Assembly: GCA_028286685.1 (NCBI GenBank)
Contig: JAQBRA010000002.1
Location: 1,073-65,072 of the forward strand
Length of the DNA: 64,000 bases
Direction: 5' to 3'
Source of the DNA: Candidatus Adlerbacteria bacterium
GTDB taxonomy: Bacteria; Patescibacteriota; Minisyncoccia; Phycocordibacterales; SBAW01
Of the stretch, positions 1 to 60,942 are shown piece by piece. The stretch's first letter is position 1, and the number at the start of each line of letters is the position of its first letter. The notes below the pieces were generated by a model, which searched no databases, was not told where the DNA came from, and worked only from the letters and a program-made list of their open reading frames with translations. Position numbers and translations under genes: made by a program.

Positions 1-2224
1 ATTGCGCGCCGATGTTGCTGGTCATGATAATGATCGTATTGCGGAAGTTGACCCGGCGGCCCTTGGAGTCGGTCAGCGTACCGGCATCAAGCACCTGCAA
101 GAGGATATTGAATACTTCCGGGTGCGCTTTCTCGATCTCGTCAAAGAGCAGCACCGAATACGGCCGGTGGCGCACCAGCTCGGTAAGCGATCCGCCTTCG
201 TCGTGACCCACGTAGCCCGGAGGCGCGCCGATAATCTTGGAGACGCTATGCTTCTCCATGTACTCGGACATGTCGACGCGTATGAGCGAGCGGTCGTCGT
301 CGAACATAAACTCCGCCAAGGCGCGCGTCAGTTCGGTCTTGCCGACACCAGTCGGTCCCAGGAACATAAACGAGGCGATCGGCCGGTTCGGGTCGGAGAT
401 GCCCGCGCGCGAGCGCTTGACCGAGTCGGCAATCTTTTGCACCGCCTCGGGCTGGCCCACTACTCTGCCCTGCAATACTTCCTCGATGCGCATGAGCTTC
501 TGCGCCTCCTCCTCGAGCATGCGCGAGACCGGGATACTGGTCCACTTGGACACCACCGCGGCAATATCGGCCTCGGTTATCTCTTCTTTGAGTATGCGGC
601 GGGTCGACTGCAGCTTCTTGAGCCGCTTCATCTTCTGCTCCAGCTCGCGCTCCATAGCCGGTATCTCGCCGTAGCGGATCTCCGCGGCGCGCGAGAGCGA
701 AGCGGAGGCCTCGGCGGTCTCAGCCTCTATGCGCAGGCTTTCAAGCTCTTTCTTTATTGATTTTATATCGCCCAGGGTCTGCTTCTCGTTCTTCCAGCGC
801 TGCTCGAGCTCGTGCGTGGCCTCCTTAAGCTCGGCTATGTCGCGCTCGATAACTTTGACGCGCGCGGCGGCTTTGCTGCCGGCAGGCGTGCTCTTGCGTC
901 CTGCCTCACCTTCAAGGTCGGCTTCCTTGCGCAAGGCTTCCTTCTCTACCTCGAGGCGCATAATCTTGCGATGCGCGTCCTCGAGCTGGGGCGGCTTGTT
1001 CTCCAGGGAAATGCGCAGCGCGGATGCCGCCTCGTCTATAAGGTCAATGGCCTTGTCAGGGAGAAAACGGTCCGGAATGTAGCGGGAAGAAAGCTCTACC
1101 GCGGCCACCAAGGAGTCGTCGGTAATATGCACCCCGTGGAAGAGCTCGTACTTTTCCTTAAGTCCGCGGAGTATCGCTATCGCATCCTCAACGGACGGCT
1201 CGAGAACATAGACCGGCTGGAAGCGCCTCTGGAAGGCCGGGTCGCGCTCGATGTGCTTCTGATACTCGCGCAGGGTCGTGGCGCCTATCATGTGAAGCTC
1301 GCCGCGCGCCAAGGCCGGCTTGATCATGTTGGAGGCGTCCATGGCGCCATCTGCGGCACCCGCACCCATCATGGTGTGTATCTCGTCGACAAACAGGAGA
1401 ACCTTCCCTTCCGAGCGCTCTATCTCTTTCATGATGGCCTTGAGCCTTTCTTCGAACTCGCCGCGATATTTGGTGCCGGCAATGAGTGCGCCCAAGTCCA
1501 AAGACACCAGCTCTTTGTCGCGCAGGGAGTCCGGCACGTCGCCCGAGGCGATGCGCGCGGCCAGGCCTTCAGCGATCGCGGTCTTGCCCACGCCGGCCTC
1601 GCCGATGAGTATCGGATTGTTCTTGGTGCGGCGCGAGAGTATCTGGATTACACGCTTGATTTCCTCGTCGCGACCGATGACCGGGTCGATTTTGTTCTGC
1701 GCCGCCATTTGCGTGAGCGAGCGCGTATATTTCTGCAGCGCGCGGAACTTCTTGGGCTGCTCGGTCGAGGCCTGCTTGGTGGAGCGCAAGTCCAGGAGCG
1801 CGCGGGTGATAGCGTCGCGCGTGATGCGGAAGCGCGAAAGGAGCTCGCGCGCAGCGCCCGGCACGTCCAAAAGGGCTATAAAAAGATGCTCGGTCGAGAC
1901 GAACTCGTCGTGGAGCTCGGTCGCGATCTTCGCGGATCGCTCCAGCGCCTGCACCAGCTCGGGGGTCAGGTACAGCTGGTAGCTGGGCGAGAGCGTCGCG
2001 CTCGTCGAGGGGCCCTCCAGGGCCTCAAGGGTCGTATCGGTAAGCAAGACGAGGTCTACTTCGAGCTTTTCGAGCACGGAAGCGACCAGGCTCTCCTCTT
2101 GCAAGAGGAGAGCTGCCAAGAGATGCGTCGGGCCCACCTGGTTCTGGCCCCGCTCGACCGCGAGCTCATGGGCCCGGCGGACGGCCTCTTTTGCTTTAGT
2201 GGTGAAGTGATTGAATGGGGGCAT
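1..2224 (-). CDS. clpB: ClpB-type AAA+ chaperone/disaggregase, C-terminus cut by window edge
   Basis: Not in the ORF track because it runs off the left edge. Reverse-strand translation from the ATG at 2224 gives [44 protein letters not shown] (Clp N-domain). Further on are Walker [31 protein letters not shown] and [22 protein letters not shown], with a long coiled-coil M-domain between the ATPase modules. Confidence 0.9.
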
Positions 2225-3048: not shown

Positions 3049-4305
3049 CTACTTTCGGTACCTATTGGCAATTTCAAAAAGTGCTTGTGCAATGCGGCGG
3101 GCCTGGCGCCGGGTAGCATCGGGCAAAAGGGTCAGACGGACCGCTTCTTGGGCCGTTTTCTTGTCGGCGCCAAGCGCCTCTATGACATAGGATGGCTCCT
3201 CGTCGTCGGTACTGCAGGCCGAACGGGTAGAGGCCGCAATGCCTGCGGCATCAAGCGCAATAACGGCCATCTGCCCGTCGAGCCCGGGTATGGAAATACT
3301 GAGGTTGTTTGCGGCCCTATGCTCGCCCGCGGGCCCATGCAGCAAAACATTGGGAATGAGGGCTTTGATTTCCTCGAGCAAGTAGTCGCGCACCTGCGCC
3401 GTTTTTGCCGCGCGCTTGCCCGCTCCCTTCTGCGCGTCGGCCAGAGCGGCGGCAAATGCTGCGGCTGCGGCTGCGTTTTCTGTCCCGGCGCGCTTGCCTT
3501 TCTCTTGTCCGCCGCCCCAGATGACCGGGTCGAGCAAAAGCCCCCGCTTAACGTACAAGCAGCCGATGCCTTTGGGGCCCAAAATTTTCTGCGCATCAAG
3601 CGTCACCATATCGACGCCGAGCTTTTCAACTTTTATATCAAGCCATAGCGGCGCCTGCGACGCGTCGACATGGAAGTACACGGGCAGCTCCCCACCCTTC
3701 TCTTGCCGGTGGGCGCGCAGGCGCCTGACCTCTTTGGCAATCTCGCGCACGGGCTCTACGGCGCCCATCTCGCTGTTTATATATTGCACGGACACGAGCG
3801 CCGTGTCGGGACGGGCAGCTTCCGTGACCGCGTTTGGAAATATAAGACCGTCAGGCTGCACGCCGACAAGCGCAAGCTCGAGCCCTTCGCGCTCAAGCGC
3901 CCGTAGAGGCGCCAGCACCGACTGGTGCTCGATAATGCTCGTTACTGCAGATACTTTTTCCCCGAGACGCAGGCGCGGTCCCAGCGTGCCGGAAATTGCC
4001 AGGTTGTTGGCCTCGGTACCTGAGGCGGTAAAGATTATCTCGTCTGGGTGCGCGCCTATCGAATCGGCGATGCTTTTGCGCGCCGCATCCAGCTCCTTCT
4101 TTGCGGCCAAGGCCTCCTGATGCAGGGCGCCCGGGTTGCCATACAACAGAAGTACGCGCAGCATCTCGCGCCTGGCTTTGCTAGACAGCGGAGTAGCCGC
4201 TGCTGCATCCGCGTAAATTCGCTTCCTTCTAAACCACATGGCTCTACTATGGCCTAGCGAAGCGAGAGAAACAAGCTCGCTTGTTTCCGAGCGAGCGACG
4301 GACAT
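3049..4305 (-). CDS. Cysteine desulfurase (class V aminotransferase, NifS/IscS family)
   Basis: 418-aa ORF with FTASGTEANN, HVDASQAPL, TLDAQKILGPKGIGCLYVKRG (PLP-Lys region) and STRSACS (active-site Cys loop). The start may instead be the ATG at 4239 (MWFRRKR...). Confidence 0.85.
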   Translation of the reverse strand: MSVARSETSELVSLASLGHSRAMWFRRKRIYADAAAATPLSSKARREMLRVLLLYGNPGALHQEALAAKKELDAARKSIADSIGAHPDEIIFTASGTEANNLAISGTLGPRLRLGEKVSAVTSIIEHQSVLAPLRALEREGLELALVGVQPDGLIFPNAVTEAARPDTALVSVQYINSEMGAVEPVREIAKEVRRLRAHRQEKGGELPVYFHVDASQAPLWLDIKVEKLGVDMVTLDAQKILGPKGIGCLYVKRGLLLDPVIWGGGQEKGKRAGTENAAAAAAFAAALADAQKGAGKRAAKTAQVRDYLLEEIKALIPNVLLHGPAGEHRAANNLSISIPGLDGQMAVIALDAAGIAASTRSACSTDDEEPSYVIEALGADKKTAQEAVRLTLLPDATRRQARRIAQALFEIANRYRK

Positions 4306-4333
4306 ATCAGCCCTGCTGTTATATACTGTGTAT

Positions 4334-4861
4334 ATGTCTGCAGCATCTCTTTACCCGTACCTCCTCGTGGCCAAAACGTACCTGACCTTGGCTGCACCCT
4401 ATCTCGCCCTTGCAGCAGCCGTCATGGCATTAGTGCTCTTGGTCATGCAAATTCGGTTGCGTCGCAGGCTTGCCCGGCTCGCGCTGGGCCGCAACGGCTC
4501 TATCGAGGAGACGATCGCGGTACTCATGCGCGACATGAAGGAATTCAAGGAGTTCCGCACCGAGCTTGAGAAATACCTGAAGCTTGCTGAAGGCCGCCTG
4601 CGCGGCACCGTATCGGGCCTGGGGGTCGTGCGCTTCAATCCGTTTACCGGCGAAGGCCAGGGCGGCAACCAGAGCTTTGCGCTCACTCTCCTAGACGAAG
4701 GGGGCCAAGGAGTGGTATTGTCGACCCTCTACGCCCGTGACCGCGTCGGCGTCTACGCCAAGCCCCTTAAGGCATTCGCCTCTACCTACGAGCTGAGCGA
4801 AGAGGAGAAGGCTTCGGTAGAAAAGGCGCGCGAGCAGATGGCTGCGCACCGCAAGGCATAA
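4334..4861 (+). CDS. DUF4446-like membrane-anchored protein
   Basis: Internal ATG of ORF 4238..4861. It has an N-terminal TM segment, then GVVRFNPFTGEGQGGNQSFALTLLDEGGQGVVLSTLYARD, which is typical of DUF4446 as I recall it. Confidence 0.6.
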   Translation: MSAASLYPYLLVAKTYLTLAAPYLALAAAVMALVLLVMQIRLRRRLARLALGRNGSIEETIAVLMRDMKEFKEFRTELEKYLKLAEGRLRGTVSGLGVVRFNPFTGEGQGGNQSFALTLLDEGGQGVVLSTLYARDRVGVYAKPLKAFASTYELSEEEKASVEKAREQMAAHRKA

Positions 4862-6833: not shown

Positions 6834-6837
6834 CAAG
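6822..6837 (+). repeat. Direct repeat DR1 (tRNA-Cys nt 62-73 plus CAAG)
   Basis: CCGCCGTGGCCTCAAG recurs identically at 6990..7005. Confidence 0.9.
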
Positions 6838-7001
6838 GAGAGTATTCGACGCTGGGGCCACGGAGAGAAGCATGGGATGCTTCTCGTCGGGAATCGCAAG
6901 CCGGAGCGGGCCCCATGCCTCTTGGCATGGGAGCGAGGCAGGGCCGTGCGGCACATGATCCAGTGGTATCATGTGAACGCCTGGCCGATCCGCCGTGGCC
7001 T
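6834..7001 (+). ncRNA. tRNA-3'-linked structured element, copy 1 (host tRNA-Cys), full length
   Basis: 22-nt spacer, then GGCCACG (6856..6862, a copy of tRNA nt 1-7) and hairpin 1 at 6865..6885. The 11-mer CGGGAATCGCA (6888..6898) is antisense to tRNA nt 54-64. Conserved blocks follow with hairpin 2 (6912..6931) and hairpin 3 (6952..6975). The element ends GAT+CCGCCGTGGCCT, a copy of tRNA nt 62-73. It has no coding potential, and homologous copies lie at 8003..8133 and 53792..53961. Confidence 0.65.
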
Positions 7002-7005
7002 CAAG
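6990..7005 (+). repeat. Direct repeat DR2 (second copy of tRNA-Cys 3' end plus CAAG)
   Basis: Identical 16-mer to 6822..6837. Confidence 0.9.
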
Positions 7006-7980: not shown

Positions 7981-8002
7981 ATTTTTAGTATTTCGCACTA
8001 GT

Positions 8003-8133
8003 GGTCAGGCGTTCAACATGCGCCGTCGCACACATTGCCGCACGACCCTGCCTCGCCGTCCTGCAAGCGTAGGACATGGCTCCGGCTCGCACACAAGCAG
8101 AAAGCCTCCCGCAGGGGAGGCTTTCTGCTTGTG
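8003..8133 (-). ncRNA. tRNA-3'-linked structured element, copy 2 (host tRNA-Lys), core-only variant
   Basis: Read on the minus strand after tRNA-Lys, a 22-bp perfect hairpin comes first. Then follow GAGCCGGAGC, hairpin GTCCT/AGGAC, CGAGGCAGGGTCGTGCGGC, hairpin AATGTGTGC/GCGCATGTT and GAACGCCTGACC. It lacks the tRNA-antisense segments and the clear 3' direct repeat. Confidence 0.55.
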
Positions 8134-8136
8134 TGC
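8089..8136. repeat. 48-nt perfect palindrome (22-bp stem, 4-nt loop) abutting the tRNA-Lys 3' end
   Basis: GCACACAAGCAGAAAGCCTCCC GCAG GGGAGGCTTTCTGCTTGTGTGC. The last 3 nt overlap the tRNA-Lys 3' terminus. Confidence 0.9.
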
Positions 8137-8206
8137 GCCTACCTGGATTCGAACCAGGGACAATCTCCTTAAGAGGGAGCTGCTCTACCAACTGAGCTAT
8201 AGGCGC
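8134..8206 (-). tRNA. tRNA-Lys(CTT)
   Basis: Reverse complement GCGCCTA-TA-GCTC-AGTTGGTA-GAGC-A-GCTCC-CTCTTAA-GGAGA-TTGTC-CCTGG-TTCGAAT-CCAGG-TAGGCGC-A. Confidence 0.88.
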
Positions 8207-10792: not shown

Positions 10793-11269
10793 ATGCAAAA
10801 GACCCTTATAACCACTGCCGTGTTGGCCGCGCTTTTTGCTCCTCTATCAGCTATAGCCGCCTCGGTACCCACCGGATACTCTTACGACCCGGGCTATTCC
10901 TACACGCCTGGATACTCATATACCCCTGGCTACTCTATCCCGTCCGGCCACTCTGAAAACTCAGGCACTTCTATATCGTCGGGCCAGTCAATCTCAAGCG
11001 GTTCATCCATACCGTCGGGCCACTCTATACCTTCCGGCTACTCTATCCCCTCCGGACACTCGATACCTTCCGGCCATTCCGTAGAATCGGGACACTCTAT
11101 ATCGTCCGGCCAGTCCATCCAAACCGGCCATTCTATACAGTCGGGTTACTCTATTAGCTCCGGACATTCCATACAGTCGGGCCGCTCTATTCAGACCGGA
11201 TACTCAATACCTTCCGGCCGCTCCATAGAGTCCGGACATTCGATAGAGGGAACAAAGCTCAGCTGGTAA
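10793..11269 (+). CDS. Secreted hexapeptide-repeat protein ((S/T)G(H/Y/R/Q)SI(P/Q/S/E))n
   Basis: 158 aa with signal peptide MQKTLITTAVLAALFAPLSAIAAS, then about 20 tandem 6-aa units (PGYSYT..., SGHSIP, SGQSIS, TGHSIQ...). A strong terminator follows. Confidence 0.7.
   Translation: MQKTLITTAVLAALFAPLSAIAASVPTGYSYDPGYSYTPGYSYTPGYSIPSGHSENSGTSISSGQSISSGSSIPSGHSIPSGYSIPSGHSIPSGHSVESGHSISSGQSIQTGHSIQSGYSISSGHSIQSGRSIQTGYSIPSGRSIESGHSIEGTKLSW
10868..11252 (+). repeat. Imperfect 18-nt tandem repeat array (coding)
   Basis: The DNA periodicity of 18 nt underlies the hexapeptide repeats of the 10793..11269 CDS. Confidence 0.8.
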
Positions 11270-30677: not shown

Positions 30678-32038
30678 CCTTTTTTAGGGACGTCGAATAT
30701 AGAAGGCTCGACCTTCTCCCCTGCCAAATGGCGGGCAATGATGCGTCCGCCGCAGGCCGAAGGCAGTATGCCTATGCCATTGCAGCCCAGGTTGTATAAA
30801 AGCACCGGGTTTTGCGGCTCGGGCCCGACCATGCGCACGCCGTTTTTGGTGTAGCCCATGAGCCCGTGCCAGGTAAAGATGTATTCTATTTTTTTGTTCG
30901 GATCCGAATCATACGTCTTGCGCAAAAAGTCATCGATCGCCTGCACATACTCCTCCGGAAACTCCTGCTCGTAGGAATACGCGCCTCGCTCCGGGAGCGC
31001 CGCCTCGGGCCCACCTATCGATATAAGGTTGTGGCCCGGGTGAGCTTCGTACTCATACGGGCGGCGAGTCAGGTAAAAGTAAACTTCTCCTGCGCTCGCT
31101 CCGGATTGCGGGAAGTAGCTAATAGCTACGGGAGGCTTATTGAGCTTCTCGAGATAGCCGGACATGTAGCCGATGTGGCCGCTAAGGCCGGCATGAAAGC
31201 GCCCGTTTACCTCAAGCCCGTGCTCGTTGATGATCGTAAAATCCTCGAATCCGTTGGTGCACAAGACGACCCTGTCTGCCGTTACAGTGTGCGTTCCCGC
31301 ATCCAAGAGCGCGTCGGCGTCGCGCAGGATCAGCTTATGGACCGGCGCATGCTCGTACAAGGCCAGGCGGTCGGGATACGTCTTGAGGAGATACGCAAAT
31401 ACCTCCTGGCACAAAAGCGCGCTATTGATGCAGCCTTTTTGATAGGAAAGCGCGGCCACGTACTCCGGCGCCTCGGACTCCAAAAGCGCCAGGACTTTCT
31501 GGTGCGGCACGACTTCGTAGAGCCCCTTGTACTCGGCCGGTATGGCGCTTAAGAAAGCAGCAGTCTCGCTTATTCGCATGCGCTCGAGCGGCAGGCCGGC
31601 CTCCTGGCGCCGGTGATTATTTTTCAAATGGAGCAGGACCTGGGTCTCGCTGGTAAAGCCCGCATGGCCCTCGAAACGTGAGAATGGGATATCGAGCCCG
31701 GCATCAGTGTACATCTCGTCTAAAAGCGCCCAGGCATCCTCGACGGCCCGCTGGCCGCGCGCCGCCATGTCCAGGCCGAACTCCTCTGCCAGGCTCGCAA
31801 AACCGCGCTCAAAGTAGCTCGTAACCTGCCCGGCATTGTGGCCCGTAGCGCCATGCGCCATCTTAAAGCGCTCGAGCACTACAACCCGCTTATCGGTGTA
31901 TTTAAGGGTGAAATACGCCGTGGCCGTGCCCGCGATGCCCGCGCCAATAATGGCCACGTCGGCTGCAAGGTCGCCCGGGAGAGTCTTTGACACCCGGGCT
32001 TGGTCGAGCTGGTAGAGCCAGGGCGAGCGGTTCTTCAT
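30674..32038 (-). CDS. FAD-dependent oxidoreductase (DAO/glycine-oxidase-like)
   Basis: 454 aa with N-terminal VAIIGAGIAGTATAYF and a DAO-family layout. Its stop overlaps the trxB stop within the tetranucleotide CTAG. Confidence 0.7.
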   Translation of the reverse strand: MKNRSPWLYQLDQARVSKTLPGDLAADVAIIGAGIAGTATAYFTLKYTDKRVVVLERFKMAHGATGHNAGQVTSYFERGFASLAEEFGLDMAARGQRAVEDAWALLDEMYTDAGLDIPFSRFEGHAGFTSETQVLLHLKNNHRRQEAGLPLERMRISETAAFLSAIPAEYKGLYEVVPHQKVLALLESEAPEYVAALSYQKGCINSALLCQEVFAYLLKTYPDRLALYEHAPVHKLILRDADALLDAGTHTVTADRVVLCTNGFEDFTIINEHGLEVNGRFHAGLSGHIGYMSGYLEKLNKPPVAISYFPQSGASAGEVYFYLTRRPYEYEAHPGHNLISIGGPEAALPERGAYSYEQEFPEEYVQAIDDFLRKTYDSDPNKKIEYIFTWHGLMGYTKNGVRMVGPEPQNPVLLYNLGCNGIGILPSACGGRIIARHLAGEKVEPSIFDVPKKG

Positions 32039-32111
32039 GACTTAGTGAGTGAGAGAATAAAAATTTGTTTTTAATTCCGAGCGAGTGACAGCCATGCAAG
32101 ACGGAGTTCTT

Positions 32112-32522
32112 TTATCGTATGGTTTTGACGAGCGTAAAGTTGCCGCGGAAACCAGGGTTTCCCGAAGCGCCTTCGTCGACATCGCCGACGCGCACGACAA
32201 CCTGCCCGGGCTCCTCAAAGACGCCTATCTCGTGGCCGCCGCCAGCAAACCAGCAGATGACCTTGGATTTCTCATACTCCAAAAAGTCGGAGTCCATCTC
32301 GGCGCAGCTGCCCTCGTGCGTACCGATGTCGAAGCTCTCGCCGCCTGCCATGAGGGTTACTTGCGTCTGCGGTATGCCATCCTTTTCGCCCCGCTCGGAA
32401 AACTCCCACGAGTAGACAAGGGGCCCGGCCGGGGCTTTTGTGTCGTGCCTAAAGACCGTAAACGCCACGCCGCCCAAAATGATGATGATAAGGCCGAGAA
32501 TTCCCCATGATTTAGGTGTCAT
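32112..32522 (-). CDS. Membrane-anchored hypothetical protein
   Basis: 136 aa with an N-terminal TM (WGILGLIIIILGGVAFTVF) and a soluble domain. No family recognised. Confidence 0.5.
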   Translation of the reverse strand: MTPKSWGILGLIIIILGGVAFTVFRHDTKAPAGPLVYSWEFSERGEKDGIPQTQVTLMAGGESFDIGTHEGSCAEMDSDFLEYEKSKVICWFAGGGHEIGVFEEPGQVVVRVGDVDEGASGNPGFRGNFTLVKTIR

Positions 32523-35686: not shown

Positions 35687-37438
35687 ATGCGTATTACAAA
35701 AGCCGCGCTCGTCGCGACTCTATCCCTCAGTGTGCTACTGCCGACGTTCGCGTCGGCGCAGACAGCTTCGGTCTATTACCCGTTCAACAGTGCGGGCACG
35801 CTCTATCAAGCGAGCTCTGCCGAAAAAAGCCCCAGTTCCTACTTCTGGCTTAAAAGCGGCGCCAAACTCGTCATCAAAGATGGTGTGGGCAACACGATAC
35901 AAGGCGCCCTTCCCGCCGACGATCCGTGGAGAAAGACCTATGCATCGACCCTCGCCACGGCCTCCGACAATGGCGCGCACCCGCAGAACACCTTCCTCCT
36001 GCTAACCCGGGCCGCATACAAGAACACCTCCGCACAGATATATGTGCGCCGTACGGCCGACAACCTTACAAACCCGGCCAATCGACAGCCCTACAACGGC
36101 GAGTCGATCCTCGCGCGGTACCAGAGTGACGGAACCTTCTACTATGCCGGCATCCGAGCCGATGGCACGGTCGTCATCAAAAAGAAATTGAACGGCGCAT
36201 ACCAAACGCTCTCGCAGAAGAAGGTGCTCTCTGGCACGTATAACGCAAGTTCAAATCCTAACCTCATCCCTAAAAACACCTGGATAGGACTTAAGCTCAC
36301 GATTGAAGACACCAGCGCAGGCCCGCAACTTACCCTCTTTACCGATGTGAGTAAGACCGGCGCGTGGAGCAAGGCGCTCAGCGTTATCGACGACAAGGCG
36401 AAATTCGGCAGCCCTATCACGGGCGCGGGTGTCGTCGGCATCCAAACCGATTACGCGGACGCGCAGTTCGACGACTTCCTCTTCTCGGAGATAGCGGCAA
36501 CATCGACCCCAGCCCCGACGCCAGCACCCACACCTACCCCTACTCCCACCCCCACTCCGACCCCGACGCCAGCACCCACACCTACGCCGACGCCTACCCC
36601 CGCACAGGGATATGACGCTACCGTGCTCGGCGGCAAGCCAGTCATGTACCTTGCAATGAACTCGTTCAGCACGGGCAAAGAGTCGGACCTAAGCGGCCAT
36701 AACAACGCCGGCGCCTACAAAGGCGGCACGCCCACGACGGCCGCGCTCCCTAACGGGGAGACGGCAGCCAACTTCAACGGCTCGAGCCAGTACCTGACCG
36801 TGCCGTCGAACGCCTCGCTCTCGATCCCGACTACCGGCAAATTGACGTGGGAGGCGTGGATCCGGCCCGATACGTTCCAGTTTTCCAACGCCAGCAGCGA
36901 TGGCTATGTCGACTGGATGGGCAAATGCGCAAACTACTCGCCGACGTGCGAGTGGGAGGCGCGCATCTACGGCGCATCGACCGCACAAGGCCGCCCCAAC
37001 CGACTCTCAGCCTACGCGTTCAACCCATCGGCCGGTCTCGGGAGCGCGGCCGACTGGCAGCCGCAGGCGGGCCTCCTGCAGGCGGGCAAGTGGCTCCACG
37101 TGGTCGCAGAATACGACCTATCGACGACGCCATCTGGGTGCTCCTCCGCTTACCCCGGATCGATCAACATCTGGGTCAACGGCATCAAGCAGAACTTCGC
37201 CGCACATGCACCGACCGGATGCATGAGCCAGTACAAAATATCCCCCAAAGCCGGCAGTTCGCCGCTTACTATCGGGACGATGGCGCTCGACACCTGGTTT
37301 AAGGGTGCGGTCGGCAAGGTCGCCGTGTACAACCGACTGCTGACGCAGACTGAAATCAATGCGCACTTCACTGCAATGACAGGCGCCAATCCTTCCGGCT
37401 CGTGCGCATCCACCTGTACCGCCGCGCTCGTGCAGTAA
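35687..37438 (+). CDS. Secreted two-domain ConA/LamG-like lectin-fold protein with Pro-Thr linker
   Basis: Signal peptide MRITKAALVATLSLSVLLPTFASA. The N-domain is homologous to the 41769..42605 product. A linker TPAPTPAPTPTPTPTPTPTPTPAPTPTPTPTP follows. The C-terminal LamG-like domain has WEAWIRPD, LHVVAEYD and VAVYNRLLTQTEI. Confidence 0.65.
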   Translation: MRITKAALVATLSLSVLLPTFASAQTASVYYPFNSAGTLYQASSAEKSPSSYFWLKSGAKLVIKDGVGNTIQGALPADDPWRKTYASTLATASDNGAHPQNTFLLLTRAAYKNTSAQIYVRRTADNLTNPANRQPYNGESILARYQSDGTFYYAGIRADGTVVIKKKLNGAYQTLSQKKVLSGTYNASSNPNLIPKNTWIGLKLTIEDTSAGPQLTLFTDVSKTGAWSKALSVIDDKAKFGSPITGAGVVGIQTDYADAQFDDFLFSEIAATSTPAPTPAPTPTPTPTPTPTPTPAPTPTPTPTPAQGYDATVLGGKPVMYLAMNSFSTGKESDLSGHNNAGAYKGGTPTTAALPNGETAANFNGSSQYLTVPSNASLSIPTTGKLTWEAWIRPDTFQFSNASSDGYVDWMGKCANYSPTCEWEARIYGASTAQGRPNRLSAYAFNPSAGLGSAADWQPQAGLLQAGKWLHVVAEYDLSTTPSGCSSAYPGSINIWVNGIKQNFAAHAPTGCMSQYKISPKAGSSPLTIGTMALDTWFKGAVGKVAVYNRLLTQTEINAHFTAMTGANPSGSCASTCTAALVQ

Positions 37439-50367: not shown

Positions 50368-50880
50368 ATGGCACGAGAAAGGCGATCATTGTTTGAGTGG
50401 CTTACGGGGAGCCAAGGCGAAGCGGACTACTCTTTTGACGAACTCGAGCAAGGCGGCGCCTCTTTTGCCGCAACCCCGGCCCGCGGAGGCCGCGTCCCGG
50501 TCCATTCACCAAGCGCTCCCATGCCCCTGCAGGAGCCCGAGGAGGAACCAGCGGGAGAATTGGCCGTCGATGTCTACCAGACCCCGACCCATATCGTCAT
50601 TAAAGCCATGATAGCTGGCGTTAAGCCTGATGATCTCGACGTTTCCATAACCCGCGATATGGTTACTATCCGCGGCAAGCGCGAGCGCCATACCGAGGGT
50701 ACTGCAGGCGACTTTTTCTTCCAGGAACTCTACTGGGGCGCTTTTAGCCGCACCATCGTCCTGCCCCAGGAGGTGGAGATAGAAGAGGCTGAGGCTTCCG
50801 AGAAGCACGGCCTCCTCATTGTGCGCCTCCCCAAGCTCGACAAGGGCCGCCAGGCAAAACTCAAGGTCAAATCGAATTAG
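50368..50880 (+). CDS. Hsp20/alpha-crystallin small heat-shock protein
   Basis: 170 aa with the ACD LAVDVYQTPTHIVIKAMIAGV...GAFSRTIVLPQEV...HGLLIVRLPK. Confidence 0.85.
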   Translation: MARERRSLFEWLTGSQGEADYSFDELEQGGASFAATPARGGRVPVHSPSAPMPLQEPEEEPAGELAVDVYQTPTHIVIKAMIAGVKPDDLDVSITRDMVTIRGKRERHTEGTAGDFFFQELYWGAFSRTIVLPQEVEIEEAEASEKHGLLIVRLPKLDKGRQAKLKVKSN

Positions 50881-50890
50881 GTTCTAGCCA

Positions 50891-50930
50891 TAAAGTAAAA
50901 GACCTGCCGCAGGGCAGGTCTTTTACTTTA
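50891..50930. terminator. Bidirectional terminator
   Basis: TAAAGTAAAAGACCTGCC-GCAG-GGCAGGTCTTTTACTTTA is an 18-bp perfect stem between hsp20 (+) and tRNA-Phe (-). Confidence 0.8.
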
Positions 50931-51006
50931 TGGTGCTTGGGGCCGGGCTCGAACCGGCGACATCTTCCTCTTCAGGGAAGCGCTCTACCAACTGAGCTAC
51001 CCAAGC
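50931..51006 (-). tRNA. tRNA-Phe(GAA), CCA encoded
   Basis: Reverse complement GCTTGGG-TA-GCTC-AGTTGGTA-GAGC-G-CTTCC-CTGAAGA-GGAAG-ATGTC-GCCGG-TTCGAGC-CCGGC-CCCAAGC-A-CCA. Confidence 0.9.
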
Positions 51007-53403: not shown

Positions 53404-53712
53404 ATGGCTTTGGCTACCCCTCTGGCACACAAAAAAGGCGGCTGTCCCGTACAAAAAACGGCCACTTTGCTGAGCGATACATGGACCATGCTTATCATCC
53501 GGGACCTCCTTGAGGGCCCTAGGCGCTTTTGCGACCTCGAACGCTCGCTTGAGGGCATATCGACCCGCACCCTGACCTTGAAGCTCAAAATCCTCGAGTC
53601 CGAACGGCTTATTAAGAAGCTCAAAGACGGCAGCTACTCGGCGACTCCCCGGGGCAAGGGCCTGCGGGTAGTCGAAAGCGCCATGCGCCGGTATGGAGAG
53701 AAATTTTTATAA
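53404..53712 (+). CDS. HxlR-family winged-helix transcriptional regulator
   Basis: 102 aa with CPVQKTATLLSDTWTMLIIRDLLEGPRRFCDLERSLEGISTRTLTLKLKILE. It is divergent from the LUD gene. Confidence 0.85.
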   Translation: MALATPLAHKKGGCPVQKTATLLSDTWTMLIIRDLLEGPRRFCDLERSLEGISTRTLTLKLKILESERLIKKLKDGSYSATPRGKGLRVVESAMRRYGEKFL

Positions 53713-53715
53713 ACT

Positions 53716-53791
53716 GTGCGGAATAGAAGCTGGGACTTATATTCCTTCCCTCGCTCGCAAATAATAGCGGGCTTTATTTGTCTCACTCGGG
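53716..53791 (-). other. Decayed remnant of a further tRNA-linked element copy
   Basis: Minus sense contains GCGAGCGAGG (block-2 fragment) and ends ...CTTCT-ATTCCGCA-C, a third copy of the tRNA-Gly acceptor 3' strand. It begins with CCGAG, like the spacer after tRNA-Gly. Confidence 0.35.
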
Positions 53792-53803
53792 TGCGGAATG
53801 GGA
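53790..53803 (-). repeat. Direct repeat (distal copy of tRNA-Gly nt 62-73 plus CC)
   Basis: Plus-strand GGTGCGGAATGGGA is identical to 53960..53973. The similarity continues (CTCGG vs CTCGGG) with a 1-nt indel. Confidence 0.85.
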
Positions 53804-53961
53804 ATCGGTCAGGCGTTCGTATAATGCCGTCGCATTATACGCCGCACGACCCTGCCTCGCTCCCGTGCCCGCTGGCACGGGGCCCGCTCCGGCTTTCGAT
53901 TCTCCACACAACCCGCCCCGCGGGTCGTTCATTCCGCACTCTTGTCACTATAGTTCCTCGG
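53792..53961 (-). ncRNA. tRNA-3'-linked structured element, copy 3 (host tRNA-Gly), full length
   Basis: In minus sense a 23-nt spacer comes first. Then follow TGCGGAAT (53938..53931), hairpin 1 ACGACCCGC-GGG-GCGGGTTGT, and GGAGAATCGAA (53905..53895, antisense to tRNA-Gly nt 54-64). The core is the same 99 nt as copy 1, and the element ends GAT+TCCCATTCCGCA. Confidence 0.65.
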
Positions 53962-53973
53962 TGCGGAATGGGA
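53960..53973 (-). repeat. Direct repeat (proximal copy, inside tRNA-Gly 3' end)
   Basis: Identical 14-mer to 53790..53803. Confidence 0.85.
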
Positions 53974-54032
53974 GAATCGAACTCCCGCCCGTTGCTTGGG
54001 AAGCAACTGTTCTACCACTAAACCAATTCCGC
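53962..54032 (-). tRNA. tRNA-Gly(CCC)
   Basis: Reverse complement GCGGAAT-TG-GTTT-AGTGGTA-GAAC-A-GTTGC-TTCCCAA-GCAAC-GGGC-GGGAG-TTCGATT-CTCCC-ATTCCGC-A. Confidence 0.9.
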
Positions 54033-54045
54033 GTACGGGCCTAAT

Positions 54046-54477
54046 TTACCACACGAAGAGCGCCCTGAATATCCTTACGAAAAAGTTGGGCGAGTCGGCC
54101 GACTCGGAGCTTGTGGTGGCCTGCCGCCGCACAATATCTATCTGGCCCTCGCCCGGCCGGGCTACCCCGTAGCGCTCGCGCACGCCCGCCTCCACCCCCC
54201 TATCCGACGACAAAGCGGCTACGGCGGCCCCTACGTGCTTGTGCTGGGACCGGAGCTCTTCCAGCTCGGCGCGAGCGCTCGCATCGGCACCTGAAGCAGC
54301 CACAAACTTGCCGTACATGCCCCAAGTGCCCCGCACCGCTATAAAAGCCACAAATACCAGGAACGCCACGCCGGCCAGGCCGAAACCCGTCTGCATCAAA
54401 TCCTGCCGGCCCGCTCGGCGCTTGCGATAGTCCTGCATGCTCTCATTGTACCCTCTTCCGGGGACCCCTTTATCCAC
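54046..54477 (-). CDS. Septum-formation initiator (FtsB/DivIC-like) protein
   Basis: 143 aa with a TM GFGLAGVAFLVFVAFIAV, a coiled coil ARAELEELRSQHKHV and VRERYGVARPGE (DivIC-like). The start may be an internal Met. Confidence 0.6.
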   Translation of the reverse strand: MDKGVPGRGYNESMQDYRKRRAGRQDLMQTGFGLAGVAFLVFVAFIAVRGTWGMYGKFVAASGADASARAELEELRSQHKHVGAAVAALSSDRGVEAGVRERYGVARPGEGQIDIVRRQATTSSESADSPNFFVRIFRALFVW

Positions 54478-60649: not shown

Positions 60650-60942
60650 ATTTAGCGCGCGCGTCTGTAAGCCGAGTTCTGTCGTGGGCTGCAATTTATC
60701 TGGGCCCAGAGTCGCCCCTGGGCTCGAGCGGCACTCCGCAGTTGCCTGCGGCACGGCCTTGCACCCGGGTAGGGATTTTGCCGTTTCACCCGAACTAAAT
60801 CGGTTCGTCACTGTTCGCACCCCTTACGACCGCTAATATCGTACGGCAGGCGTTACCTGCTACCTTGCTACTGCAGTTGCCCGCAGTGGGAGCTCGGACT
60901 TTCCTCTCCGTCTTGCGACAGAGCTGCAACCAAACGCGCTTT
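60650..60942 (-). ncRNA. rnpB: RNase P RNA (bacterial type A, compact)
   Basis: Minus sense contains the universally conserved GAGAGGAAAGTCCGAGCTCC (P4 5' strand) and ACAGAACTCGGCTTACAG (P4 3' strand). The ends are estimated from P1/P2-like pairing and are approximate. Confidence 0.85.

What the first reader, a model, noticed from the sequence alone, without database searches (positions are those of the whole stretch)
53716..53961. tRNA-Gly locus: full module followed by a decayed remnant ending in a third copy of the tRNA 3' strand (tandem accretion?)
Downstream of the full Gly copy (53792..53961), the next about 75 nt in minus sense begin with CCGAG, like the spacer after the tRNA. They contain GCGAGCGAGG, a fragment of conserved block 2, and end in ATTCCGCA-C (53716..53724 on the plus strand). 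That gives three co-oriented copies of the tRNA-Gly acceptor 3' strand within 260 nt. This is the pattern expected if successive insertions at the regenerated tRNA 3' end push older copies downstream, where they decay.
Basis: seen in the sequence. Interest (0 to 1): 0.6.

Follow-up and report, generated by a model that had tools for sequence, protein, structure and literature searches.

The report
Two insertions behind tRNA-Gly gene
In this candidate-phyla-radiation bacterium, 243 bases have been inserted next to the 3' end of the tRNA-Gly gene: one intact copy of an apparently undescribed structured RNA module that sits behind tRNA and tmRNA genes, plus a piece of a second, unrelated repeat.

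Summary
The three co-oriented copies of ATTCCGCAC are real. The 9-mer occurs four times in 64 kb, all at this locus, against 0.54 expected. At least 11 orthologous loci, falling into four distinct sequences, have the same gene order but the tRNA-Gly 3' end lies 1-19 nt from the HxlR stop codon. In the window the third copy (53716-53724) lies 3 nt from that stop. So about 243 nt were most likely gained here and the tRNA 3' end was duplicated.

The proximal 170 nt is an intact module with a three-way-junction RNA: 94% of cells paired, 26 of 37 pairs compensated. Its closing helix pairs an antisense copy with a sense copy of the tRNA 3' end. The family is widespread in the candidate phyla radiation (CPR). 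It sits behind 21 tRNA anticodon types and tmRNA, is present or absent at orthologous sites, and forms mixed arrays. It has no Rfam match.

The 66-nt "remnant" is not a decayed module: covariance model 1.7 bits, alignment p = 0.2-0.36. It is 86% identical (E = 9e-9) to a second dispersed family that elsewhere lies on the opposite strand upstream of genes. GCGAGCGAGG belongs to that family.

Repeated insertion at the tRNA end is supported. A decayed copy of the same module is not. The insertion mechanism is unknown.

The parts
53960..54032 (-). tRNA-Gly(CCC) gene, intact
   Evidence: ARAGORN; Rfam tRNA model, 70.4 bits.
53961..53978 (-). X1: the tRNA's own 3' segment, GATTCTCCCATTCCGCAC, running from T-loop G57 to the base after the discriminator
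   Evidence: Sequence; 9-mer search.
53940..53960 (-). Spacer CGAGGAACTATAGTGACAAGA. Its first four bases, CGAG, repeat the bases that follow X2.
   Evidence: Sequence. The spacer is unrelated to the one in the 91%-identical module of L148.
53930..53939 (-). X'a: GTGCGGAATG, an antisense copy of the acceptor 3' strand plus the discriminator and the next C
   Evidence: Plus-strand hit of ATTCCGCAC. It pairs with X2 in the minimum-free-energy fold.
53906..53929 (-). Inserted hairpin ACGACCCGC-GGGG-GCGGGTTGT between the two halves of the antisense copy
   Evidence: Fold. The same hairpin is present in L148.
53895..53905 (-). X'b: GGAGAATCGAA, an antisense copy of the T loop and the T-stem 3' strand
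   Evidence: Sequence. Helix 1 is 75% paired, and all 7 pairs show changes on both sides.
53807..53894 (-). Module core: AGCCGGAGC, hairpin, GAGCGAGGCAGGGTCGTGCGGC, hairpin with a GACG loop, GAACGCCTGACC
   Evidence: Covariance model, 111 bits. Covariation. Fold z-score -5.4.
53791..53806 (-). X2: GATTC-CCATTCCGCAC, a sense copy of the tRNA 3' segment with one base missing. It is the 3' strand of the closing helix.
53725..53790 (+). A copy of a second dispersed family, here called E1-like, cut short where it meets X2.
   Evidence: blastn: 86% identity over 57 nt to L037:7710-7766, E = 9.4e-9. nhmmer hits in the window and in L111. Alignment A3.
53753..53782 (+). Terminator-like hairpin GCTCGC..GCGGGC followed by TTTATTTGTC. 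It starts 41 nt after the HxlR stop and lies inside the E1-like piece.
   Evidence: Consensus scan. The equivalent hairpin varies with compensation among the five family copies.
53716..53724 (-). X3: the third copy of ATTCCGCAC, 3 nt from the HxlR stop codon. The tRNA end lies 1-19 nt from that stop in relatives without the insertion.
53404..53712 (+). Convergent HxlR-family regulator gene. Its stop codon anchors the comparison with the orthologous loci.
   Evidence: Pfam PF01638 on the identical contig L117; homologues.
6835..7002 (+). Sister module behind tRNA-Cys. Same layout, with arms that match tRNA-Cys.
   Evidence: (95 bits).
7991..8132 (-). Sister module behind tRNA-Lys(CTT). The long palindromic trailer hairpin supplies the antisense arm.
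   Evidence: inverted repeat I16; 98 bits.

Best explanation
The locus records DNA gained at the 3' end of the tRNA-Gly(CCC) gene, with the tRNA 3' segment duplicated so that the gene stayed whole.

SHOWN
- Relatives with the same gene order have the tRNA end 1-19 nt from the HxlR stop. Gene order: glutaredoxin, LUD-domain protein, HxlR, tRNA-Gly, a 130-aa protein, LepA.
- The window has 243 extra bases there, and a copy of the tRNA's last 9 nt remains 3 nt from the stop.
- The proximal 170 nt is an intact member of a CPR-wide family of modules that lie directly 3' of tRNA and tmRNA genes on the same strand.
- A module is a spacer, an antisense copy of the tRNA 3' end, a core of about 90 nt with two covarying hairpins, and a sense copy of the tRNA 3' end starting at T-loop G57.
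- The two tRNA-derived arms pair to close a three-way junction. An invariant G.U pair places the folded strand on the tRNA-sense strand.
- The distal 66 nt is a truncated copy of a different dispersed family. It carries a terminator-like hairpin on the HxlR strand.

INFERRED
- There were two events. The 66-nt piece arrived first, flanked by the 9-nt repeat.
- The module arrived later, because its flanking repeat (X plus CGAG) includes the first four bases of that piece.
- The module is co-transcribed with the tRNA and is a non-autonomous copy-and-paste element that targets tRNA 3' ends.
- The enzyme is unknown. I favour an RNA-mediated, template-switching route, with low confidence.
- The confidence value below covers the shown steps and the two-event history, not the mechanism.
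For: THIRD COPY
- The 9-mer is confined to this locus.

ORTHOLOGOUS SITES WITHOUT THE INSERTION
- L240, L238, L241/L242 and L244-L250 give four distinct sequences. HxlR is 82-92% identical to the window's.
- All have the tRNA-Gly end 1-19 nt from the HxlR stop and no module.
- In L241 the tRNA is 70/72 identical to the window's and reads ...CCCATTCCGCAC A TTA. The window reads ...ATTCCGCAC AGT TTA.

FAMILY
- A pattern scan of genome contigs returned true hits only from CPR genomes.
- Of 67 covariance-model hits, 46 lie within 130 nt 3' of a same-strand tRNA or tmRNA gene (21 tRNA anticodon types and one tmRNA).
- Six more follow another module and 5 are at locus edges.
- Rfam shows that one hit with no ARAGORN gene lies 147 nt 3' of a tmRNA (L046).

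STRUCTURE
- 94% of cells are paired, against 31-40% with slid partners. 26 of 37 pairs change on both sides. 0 of 500 shuffles reach the observed values.

MOBILITY
- About 20 of 116 tRNA-Gly loci carry a module.
- L145 and L186 have near-identical tRNAs but no module. L148 has a module 91% identical to the window's, with different spacer, flanks and neighbouring genes.
- The flanking repeat runs 0 to more than 60 nt past the tRNA end: L126 20 nt, L175 37 nt, L142 62 nt.
- Arrays hold different subtypes: L141, L142, L037.

IDENTITY OF THE 66-NT PIECE
-.

NO RECOMBINASE NEARBY
- The Pfam hits on record for the called neighbours are Glutaredoxin, LUD_dom, HxlR and, in relatives, LepA. The 130-aa protein has none (for the window's 143-aa ORF).
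Against: - Gain versus loss is inferred by parsimony. Precise deletion between the direct repeats in every relative would give the same picture.
- One event and two events cannot be told apart with certainty. CGAG is only four bases, and the repeat has an extra C.
- Expression of the module has not been shown. In most loci a terminator-like hairpin lies between the tRNA and the core.
- In the trailer-hairpin subtype the antisense arm is simply the 3' strand of a palindromic trailer hairpin. The same kind of hairpin exists behind the module-free tRNA-Phe of the window. So that arm is not always made by insertion.
- Part of the core's sequence invariance comes from the search pattern and filter I used.
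- No candidate enzyme was found, nor any module version with an ORF.
Confidence: 0.62

Rival explanations
1. The 75 nt are an older copy of the same module in the same orientation. A newer insertion at the regenerated tRNA end pushed it downstream, and it has since decayed.
For: - The third 9-mer and the shared CGAG.
- Truncated or low-scoring distal units exist elsewhere: L106, L080, L189, and the third unit behind tRNA-Arg(TCT) in L037.
- A weak hairpin, GGAATATAAG/CTTCTATTCC, next to the third copy could be a leftover closing helix, p = 0.034.
Against: - Covariance model: 1.7 bits, E = 0.12 in a 111-nt search.
- Alignments to the module: p = 0.2-0.36.
- The stretch matches another family at E = 9e-9, including the GCGAGCGAGG block.
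- The 5' arm of that hairpin lies inside the stretch that aligns with the L037 copy.
Confidence: 0.08
2. A single event. A 243-nt composite (module, X2 and the 66-nt piece) came in one step from another strain. For example by natural transformation, with homologous recombination in the tRNA on one side and a microhomology join at ATTCCGCAC on the other.
For: - Only the outer repeats X1 and X3 are needed for such an event. X2 is an internal part of the module's closing helix.
- The module is 91% identical to the one in L148, which argues for lateral origin.
Against: - No donor arrangement was found. In L148, X2 is followed by a promoter and a glutaredoxin gene, not by the 66-nt piece.
- The CGAG repeat is better explained by insertion next to a piece that was already in place.
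Confidence: 0.2
3. The module is not mobile. It is a resident functional RNA of tRNA operons: a processing or stability element, or a three-part switch in which the antisense arm can pair with either the tRNA end or its decoy. Its patchy distribution reflects loss, and arrays reflect local tandem duplication and gene conversion.
For: - Strong covariation and conserved positions.
- Modules sit behind tRNA-Cys and tRNA-Lys(CTT) in the window, L038, L062, L081, L097 and L107.
- L177 is a perfect tandem duplicate.
- In L121 the antisense arm and X2 share a base that differs from the tRNA.
Against: - All orthologous HxlR loci lack it.
- Near-identical modules sit in different local contexts.
- Arrays made of different subtypes cannot arise by duplicating one unit.
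- Repeats extend into non-functional flank even where there is no antisense partner for them (L126).
Confidence: 0.15
4. Nothing was inserted. The third 9-mer is chance, and the 66 nt are just the HxlR terminator region.
For: A terminator-like hairpin for HxlR lies at 53753-53782.
Against: - The 9-mer statistics.
- Relatives have no spacer of this kind between the HxlR stop and the tRNA.
Confidence: 0.02

Closest known systems
Integrase-borne genomic islands and prophages at tRNA and tmRNA genes (attL/attR repeats, tandem islands)
   Same: - The targets are the 3' parts of tRNA and tmRNA genes.
- The inserted DNA brings or regenerates the 3' end.
- The direct repeat starts in the T loop and runs past the gene end.
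- Several insertions can stack at one gene.
   Different: - The unit is 110-250 nt with no integrase.
- One conserved core serves more than 20 tRNA types, with arms that match each tRNA.
- An antisense copy of the target lies inside the unit.
- The core shows RNA-type covariation with a conserved G.U pair.
Integron cassette arrays and attC sites
   Same: - A unit of 60-150 nt is closed by inverted repeats.
- A short core repeat recurs at every junction.
- Units accumulate at one entry site.
   Different: - No IntI gene or attI site was seen. I did not look for them beyond the genes next to the Gly locus.
- The arms are target-derived and lack the GTTRRRY/RYYYAAC consensus.
- The centre is conserved in sequence, whereas attC sites are conserved only in shape.
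- No cassette ORFs.
Non-autonomous repeats: MITEs, REPINs, and SINEs or R2-type retroelements that insert by target-primed reverse transcription
   Same: - Small and non-coding, in several copies per genome.
- Flanking duplications of variable length.
- One precise junction and one variable junction with filler.
- Like R2, the element sits in a conserved RNA gene and would be co-transcribed with it.
   Different: - The terminal inverted repeats are copies of the target rather than fixed transposase sites.
- No reverse transcriptase or transposase partner was identified.
- No A-rich tail.
Three-part RNA switches: terminator/antiterminator leaders and riboswitch expression platforms
   Same: The layout sequence X, antisense X', sense X allows two exclusive pairings.
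   Different: - The module lies 3' of its presumed target, a tRNA that folds first.
- Repeats extend into the flank beyond any pairing need.
- No ligand or regulated ORF.

Membership tests
tRNA-linked module family of this report (model R1) | Core with two covarying hairpins and the conserved junctions, scored by the covariance model | tested here: met
   53795-53906 scores 111 bits, E = 3e-24. This copy is one of the 42 the model was built from.
tRNA-linked module family of this report (model R1) | The same test applied to the 'remnant', 53716-53791 | tested here: not met
   No hit at E <= 10 in the window. 1.7 bits, E = 0.12 in 111 nt. Alignment p = 0.2-0.36.
tRNA-linked module family of this report (model R1) | Lies directly 3' of a tRNA or tmRNA gene on the same strand, with an antisense and a sense copy of that gene's 3' end flanking the core | tested here: met
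Second dispersed family (E1-like) | Significant similarity to the other copies, including the blocks CGAGTGAGA and CCGAGCGAG around a variable hairpin | tested here: met
   86% over 57 nt, E = 9.4e-9. The gapped pattern has 2 matches against 0.00 expected. nhmmer hits.
Second dispersed family (E1-like) | Followed, on its own strand, by CTAGG and the start codon of a gene | tested here: not met
   At the Gly locus the copy stops at CTCACTCG and runs into X2. No ORF follows.
Integrase-mediated integrative element at a tRNA gene | A tyrosine or serine recombinase gene inside or next to the element | tested here: not met
   The element is 243 nt. The neighbours are glutaredoxin, LUD-domain protein, HxlR, a protein of about 130-143 aa with no Pfam hit, and LepA in relatives. 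Action in trans is not excluded.
Integrase-mediated integrative element at a tRNA gene | Direct repeats made of the tRNA 3' part at both ends | tested here: met
   X1, X2 and X3. In other loci the repeat reaches 20-62 nt into the flank.
Integron cassette / attC | Conserved R''/R' core sites (RYYYAAC ... GTTRRRY) and an IntI/attI platform | tested here: not met
   The arms are GTGCGGAATG..GGAGAATC and GATTC..CGCAC, and they change with each tRNA. No search for IntI was made.
Any Rfam 15 family, including group I/II introns, self-cleaving ribozymes, T-box, tmRNA and Y RNA | A match to the family's covariance model | tested here: not met
   Only the tRNA is found in 53600-54100 at E <= 10. The whole window at gathering scores gives only tRNAs and RNase P RNA.
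Retroelement inserted by target-primed reverse transcription | A reverse transcriptase partner and an RNA intermediate | not testable with these tools
   Only indirect signs: one precise junction at T-loop G57, a variable other junction, and repeats of variable length.

The most novel reading that the evidence does not exclude
The modules are a new class of non-autonomous mobile RNA genes specific to CPR bacteria. A three-way-junction RNA, co-transcribed with a tRNA or tmRNA, would be copied back into tRNA genes at the T loop. The tRNA-derived arms would act as the homing or priming determinant, so the host gene is always repaired. The Gly locus would then be a fresh example of such an insertion site, one that also captures other sequence.
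Probability: 0.3. Interest if true: 0.85.

Novelty: new variant of a known kind. Interest (0 to 1): 0.66.

Why it matters
CPR bacteria have very small genomes, so a non-coding unit of 110-170 nt present behind many of their tRNA genes and behind tmRNA is unlikely to be neutral clutter.

If it is a mobile element that always restores its target, it would be a new way for a parasite-like RNA gene to live in essential genes without cost. It would also be a possible tool for site-specific insertion at tRNA genes.

If it is a resident RNA, it points to an unknown step of tRNA processing or control in these organisms.

Either way it is a well-supported candidate RNA family that Rfam lacks and that the searched literature did not mention. 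Its flanking tRNA-end copies can also confuse tRNA and att-site annotation.

The 'remnant' belongs to another family.

Tried and rejected
1. Rfam at gathering and at E <= 10 on the locus, on a second repeat copy and on 11 related loci. Only tRNA, tmRNA, rRNA and RNase P RNA were found.
2. Strain variation through the exact HxlR protein. The only contig found, L117, is identical to the window.
3. Remnant against module by local alignment, collinear alignment and the covariance model. All were non-significant.
4. A leftover closing helix beside the third copy. p = 0.08 anywhere in the stretch, p = 0.034 if required to be adjacent, and the fold energy is not unusual, p = 0.27. Too weak to use.
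5. The idea that the second family has the same repeat-flanked layout as the module, and so would be a sister mobile element. Flanking-repeat tests failed in 3 of 5 copies.
   - RNAalifold instead pairs an upstream box with the Shine-Dalgarno/start region, as in a 5' leader. I dropped the idea.
6. Hammerhead, HDV-like, group II domain V, T-box, TIGR array and bridge RNA were considered from memory. None has an Rfam hit, and the layout differs in each case.
7. Viral contigs. The alpha-subtype core pattern gave only chance hits (11 bits). The beta-subtype pattern found one contig, L255, with two tandem modules but no visible context.
8. Module versions carrying an ORF. None were found among the loci held.
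9. Six literature searches and one paper read. No description of such modules turned up.

Full report
WHAT IS AT THE COORDINATES

ARAGORN and Rfam place tRNA-Gly(CCC) at 53960-54032 on the minus strand. Read on that strand the locus is:
- the tRNA, ending ...GGGAGTTCGATTCTCCCATTCCGCAC;
- a 21-nt spacer, CGAGGAACTATAGTGACAAGA;
- GTGCGGAATG, here X'a;
- a hairpin;
- GGAGAATCGAA, here X'b;
- an 88-nt core;
- GATTC-CCATTCCGCAC, here X2;
- 66 nt;
- ATTCCGCAC, here X3;
- AGT, then the reverse of the HxlR stop codon.

The 9-mer ATTCCGCAC occurs four times in the 64-kb window, all here. Three are in the tRNA sense and one, inside X'a, is antisense. The expected number is 0.54, and no shuffle reaches four.

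THE 170-NT UNIT IS A MEMBER OF A LARGE FAMILY

The window holds three units with the same core, behind tRNA-Cys, tRNA-Lys(CTT) and tRNA-Gly.

A pattern scan of one genome per species returned true matches only from CPR lineages. These were Saccharibacteria, Paceibacterota, Adlerbacteria, Nomurabacteria and related groups. The hits in high-GC genomes were chance matches inside genes.

I aligned 42 cores. RNAalifold predicts two hairpins joined by conserved junctions, and 19 of 30 pairs have compensatory changes. I then added the closing helix formed by the flanks:
- 94% of 1547 cells are paired, against 31-40% when partners are slid;
- 26 of 37 pairs change on both sides;
- no shuffle in 500 reaches the observed values.

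An invariant G.U pair, and many more G.U than A.C departures, put the folded strand on the tRNA-sense strand. This fits an RNA better than a DNA site. One caveat applies: part of the core's sequence invariance comes from the search pattern and filter I used. The stems, which carry the covariation, were not constrained.

A covariance model (R1) finds 64 units in 45 CPR loci, plus the three in the window, which are part of the model:
- 46 of the 67 lie within 130 nt downstream of a same-strand tRNA or tmRNA gene, covering 21 tRNA anticodon types and one tmRNA;
- six follow another unit;
- five are at locus edges;
- Rfam shows that one hit with no ARAGORN gene lies 147 nt 3' of a tmRNA, in L046.

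Nothing in Rfam 15 matches the module, even at E = 10. Six literature searches found no description of it.

ANATOMY OF THE MODULE

In the Gly and Cys type, the sequence just 5' of the core is a plain antisense copy of the last 21 nt of the tRNA gene. It includes the discriminator and the next C, so it is a copy of the 3' strand and not of the tRNA's own 5' acceptor strand. It may be interrupted by a hairpin.

The sequence just 3' of the core is a sense copy that always begins at T-loop G57. The two pair and close a three-way junction.

In the Lys type, the antisense arm is the 3' strand of a long palindromic trailer hairpin that reaches a few bases into the tRNA. The module-free tRNA-Phe of the window has the same kind of hairpin. 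In that subtype, then, the antisense arm predates the module.

IS THE REMNANT A DECAYED MODULE? NO

- With filters off, R1 gives no hit at 53716-53791 in the window at E <= 10.
- In a 111-nt search the best score is 1.7 bits, E = 0.12.
- Local and collinear alignments to the adjacent module are no better than dinucleotide shuffles: p = 0.20-0.27 and p = 0.36.

Instead, a blastn search of all fetched loci found an 86% match over 57 nt to L037:7710-7766, E = 9.4e-9. nhmmer then found further copies at window 4242-4349, window 32030-32131 and L111 959-1060. The gapped pattern GAGTGAGANA..CGAGCGAG has two window matches against 0.00 expected.

In the four other copies, read on the opposite strand, the family looks like a 5' leader:
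- a box that can pair with the Shine-Dalgarno/start region;
- CCGTCGCTCGCTCGG;
- a variable hairpin with a T run;
- TCTCTCACTCGCTAGG;
- a gene start at or shortly after this block.

The genes that follow include a class-V aminotransferase, a FAD oxidoreductase and a tRNA-binding-domain protein.

At the Gly locus the copy lies on the HxlR strand and begins just after the HxlR stop. It supplies a terminator-like hairpin. It is cut off at CTCACTCG, where it meets X2, and no gene follows.

WHERE THE THIRD COPY COMES FROM

HxlR homologues led to loci with the same gene order: glutaredoxin, LUD-domain protein, HxlR, tRNA-Gly, a 130-aa protein, LepA. Their HxlR is 82-92% identical to the window's. 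These are L240, L238, L241/L242 and L244-L250, which give four distinct sequences.

In all of them the tRNA-Gly 3' end lies 1-19 nt from the HxlR stop, and there is no module. L241, whose tRNA is 70/72 identical to the window's, reads ...GATTCTCCCATTCCGCAC A TTA. The window reads ...CTTCTATTCCGCAC AGT TTA.

X3 thus lies 3 nt from the stop, within the range where the tRNA end lies in those relatives. By parsimony the 243 nt are a gain in the window's lineage. The only other contig with the identical HxlR protein, L117, is identical in sequence.

The bases just upstream of the 9-mer, CTTCT, have a counterpart, CTTAT, in the L037 copy in the MAFFT alignment, outside the significant blastn match. 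I therefore count only 6-9 nt as tRNA-derived.

ORDER OF EVENTS (INFERENCE)

The repeat flanking the module is X plus CGAG: X1 reads CAC-CGAG|GAAC and X2 reads CAC-C-CGAG|TGAG. CGAG is the start of the second family's conserved block CGAGTGAGA.

This fits a history in which the 66-nt piece was already next to the tRNA end when the module went in. A single composite insertion cannot be excluded.

EVIDENCE THAT MODULES COME AND GO

A metagenome scan with the tRNA-Gly 3' 21-mer gave 116 usable loci, of which about 20 carry a module.
- L145 (tRNA 72/72 identical) and L186 have the tRNA followed directly by the glutaredoxin gene.
- L148 has, at the same place, a module 91% identical over 149 nt to the window's, including the inserted hairpin. 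Its spacer and downstream flank are unrelated, and HxlR is not its neighbour.
- The direct repeat starts at G57 but ends anywhere from 0 to more than 60 nt past the tRNA: L126 20 nt, L175 37 nt, L142 62 nt. In L126 it extends where it has no antisense partner. It is therefore a by-product of the insertion process, not a pairing requirement.
- Arrays exist and can mix subtypes: four units of three kinds in L141; two cores behind identical spacers in L142; alpha-beta-alpha in L037. L177 is a perfect tandem duplicate.

Stacking at a tRNA end is therefore real in the family. Age is not simply ordered along the array, though: in L033 and L061 the proximal unit scores lower.

HOW IT MAY WORK

Shown: the structure, the linkage to tRNA and tmRNA 3' ends, the target duplication from the T loop, and presence/absence at orthologous sites.

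Not shown: transcription, processing, and the enzyme.

No recombinase lies beside the Gly locus. No ORF-bearing version was seen. One virus-labelled contig carries two tandem units, but its context is not held.

My preferred reading is a non-autonomous element copied through RNA. The reasons are the RNA-type conservation, one exact junction and one ragged junction, and repeats of variable length. A trans-acting site-specific recombinase, or a purely resident RNA with local duplication and loss, remain live rivals.

VERDICT

Noticed in passing
window 4242-4349 (+), 32030-32131 (+), 53702-53800 (-); L037 7666-7782; L111 959-1060: A second conserved intergenic family. Read on the opposite strand it looks like a 5' leader. 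It has a box able to pair with the Shine-Dalgarno/start region, CCGTCGCTCGCTCGG, a variable hairpin with a T run, and TCTCTCACTCGCTAGG, with a gene start at or shortly after that block. The downstream genes are a class-V aminotransferase, a FAD oxidoreductase and a tRNA-binding-domain protein. No Rfam match.
   Followed up: partly
L238 about 1005-1050 (minus strand): A 24-nt 5' fragment of a tRNA-Gly (GCGGAATTAGTTTAGTGGTAGAAC) lies 22 nt upstream of the intact tRNA-Gly. It looks like a leftover of a gene replacement or a partial duplication.
   Followed up: no
window 8088-8137 and 7991-8002: A perfect 23-bp palindrome includes the last 5 nt of tRNA-Lys. After the Lys module comes GTGCGA, the usual start of a second unit, and then unrelated AT-rich sequence.
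   Followed up: partly
window 50870-50935 (minus strand): tRNA-Phe has no module but does have a 21-bp perfect palindromic trailer hairpin that pairs with its terminal CCA. Long trailer hairpins reaching into the tRNA end are thus a general feature here.
   Followed up: partly
L061 6303-7040; L046 776-1411: Modules also follow tmRNA genes in two unrelated loci.
   Followed up: partly
L141, L142, L177, L183 (downstream of tRNA-Gly): Complex arrays. L141 has four units of three kinds, two of them nested in one closing helix. L142 has two different cores behind identical 62-nt spacer-plus-arm segments. L177 is a perfect tandem duplicate.
   Followed up: partly
L157, about 180-900 nt downstream of tRNA-Gly: The second unit is interrupted after 4 nt of core by DNA that carries a perfect palindrome and a reverse ORF. 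The ORF looks like a DDE transposase by eye. I did not check it.
   Followed up: no
L255 2846-3187 (IMG/VR contig): A contig labelled viral carries two tandem beta-type modules with arms that look like a tRNA-Ser 3' end. The tRNA itself lies beyond the stretch held.
   Followed up: partly
window 60652-60942 (-): The RNase P RNA scores only 104.8 bits against a cut-off of 100, and spans 291 nt against a 367-position model. It appears to be a reduced form.
   Followed up: no
window 10892-11263 and 36494-36601: Tandem repeats of 18 nt (14 overlapping copies) and of 12 nt (Pro/Thr-rich if translated). They are unrelated to the finding.
   Followed up: no
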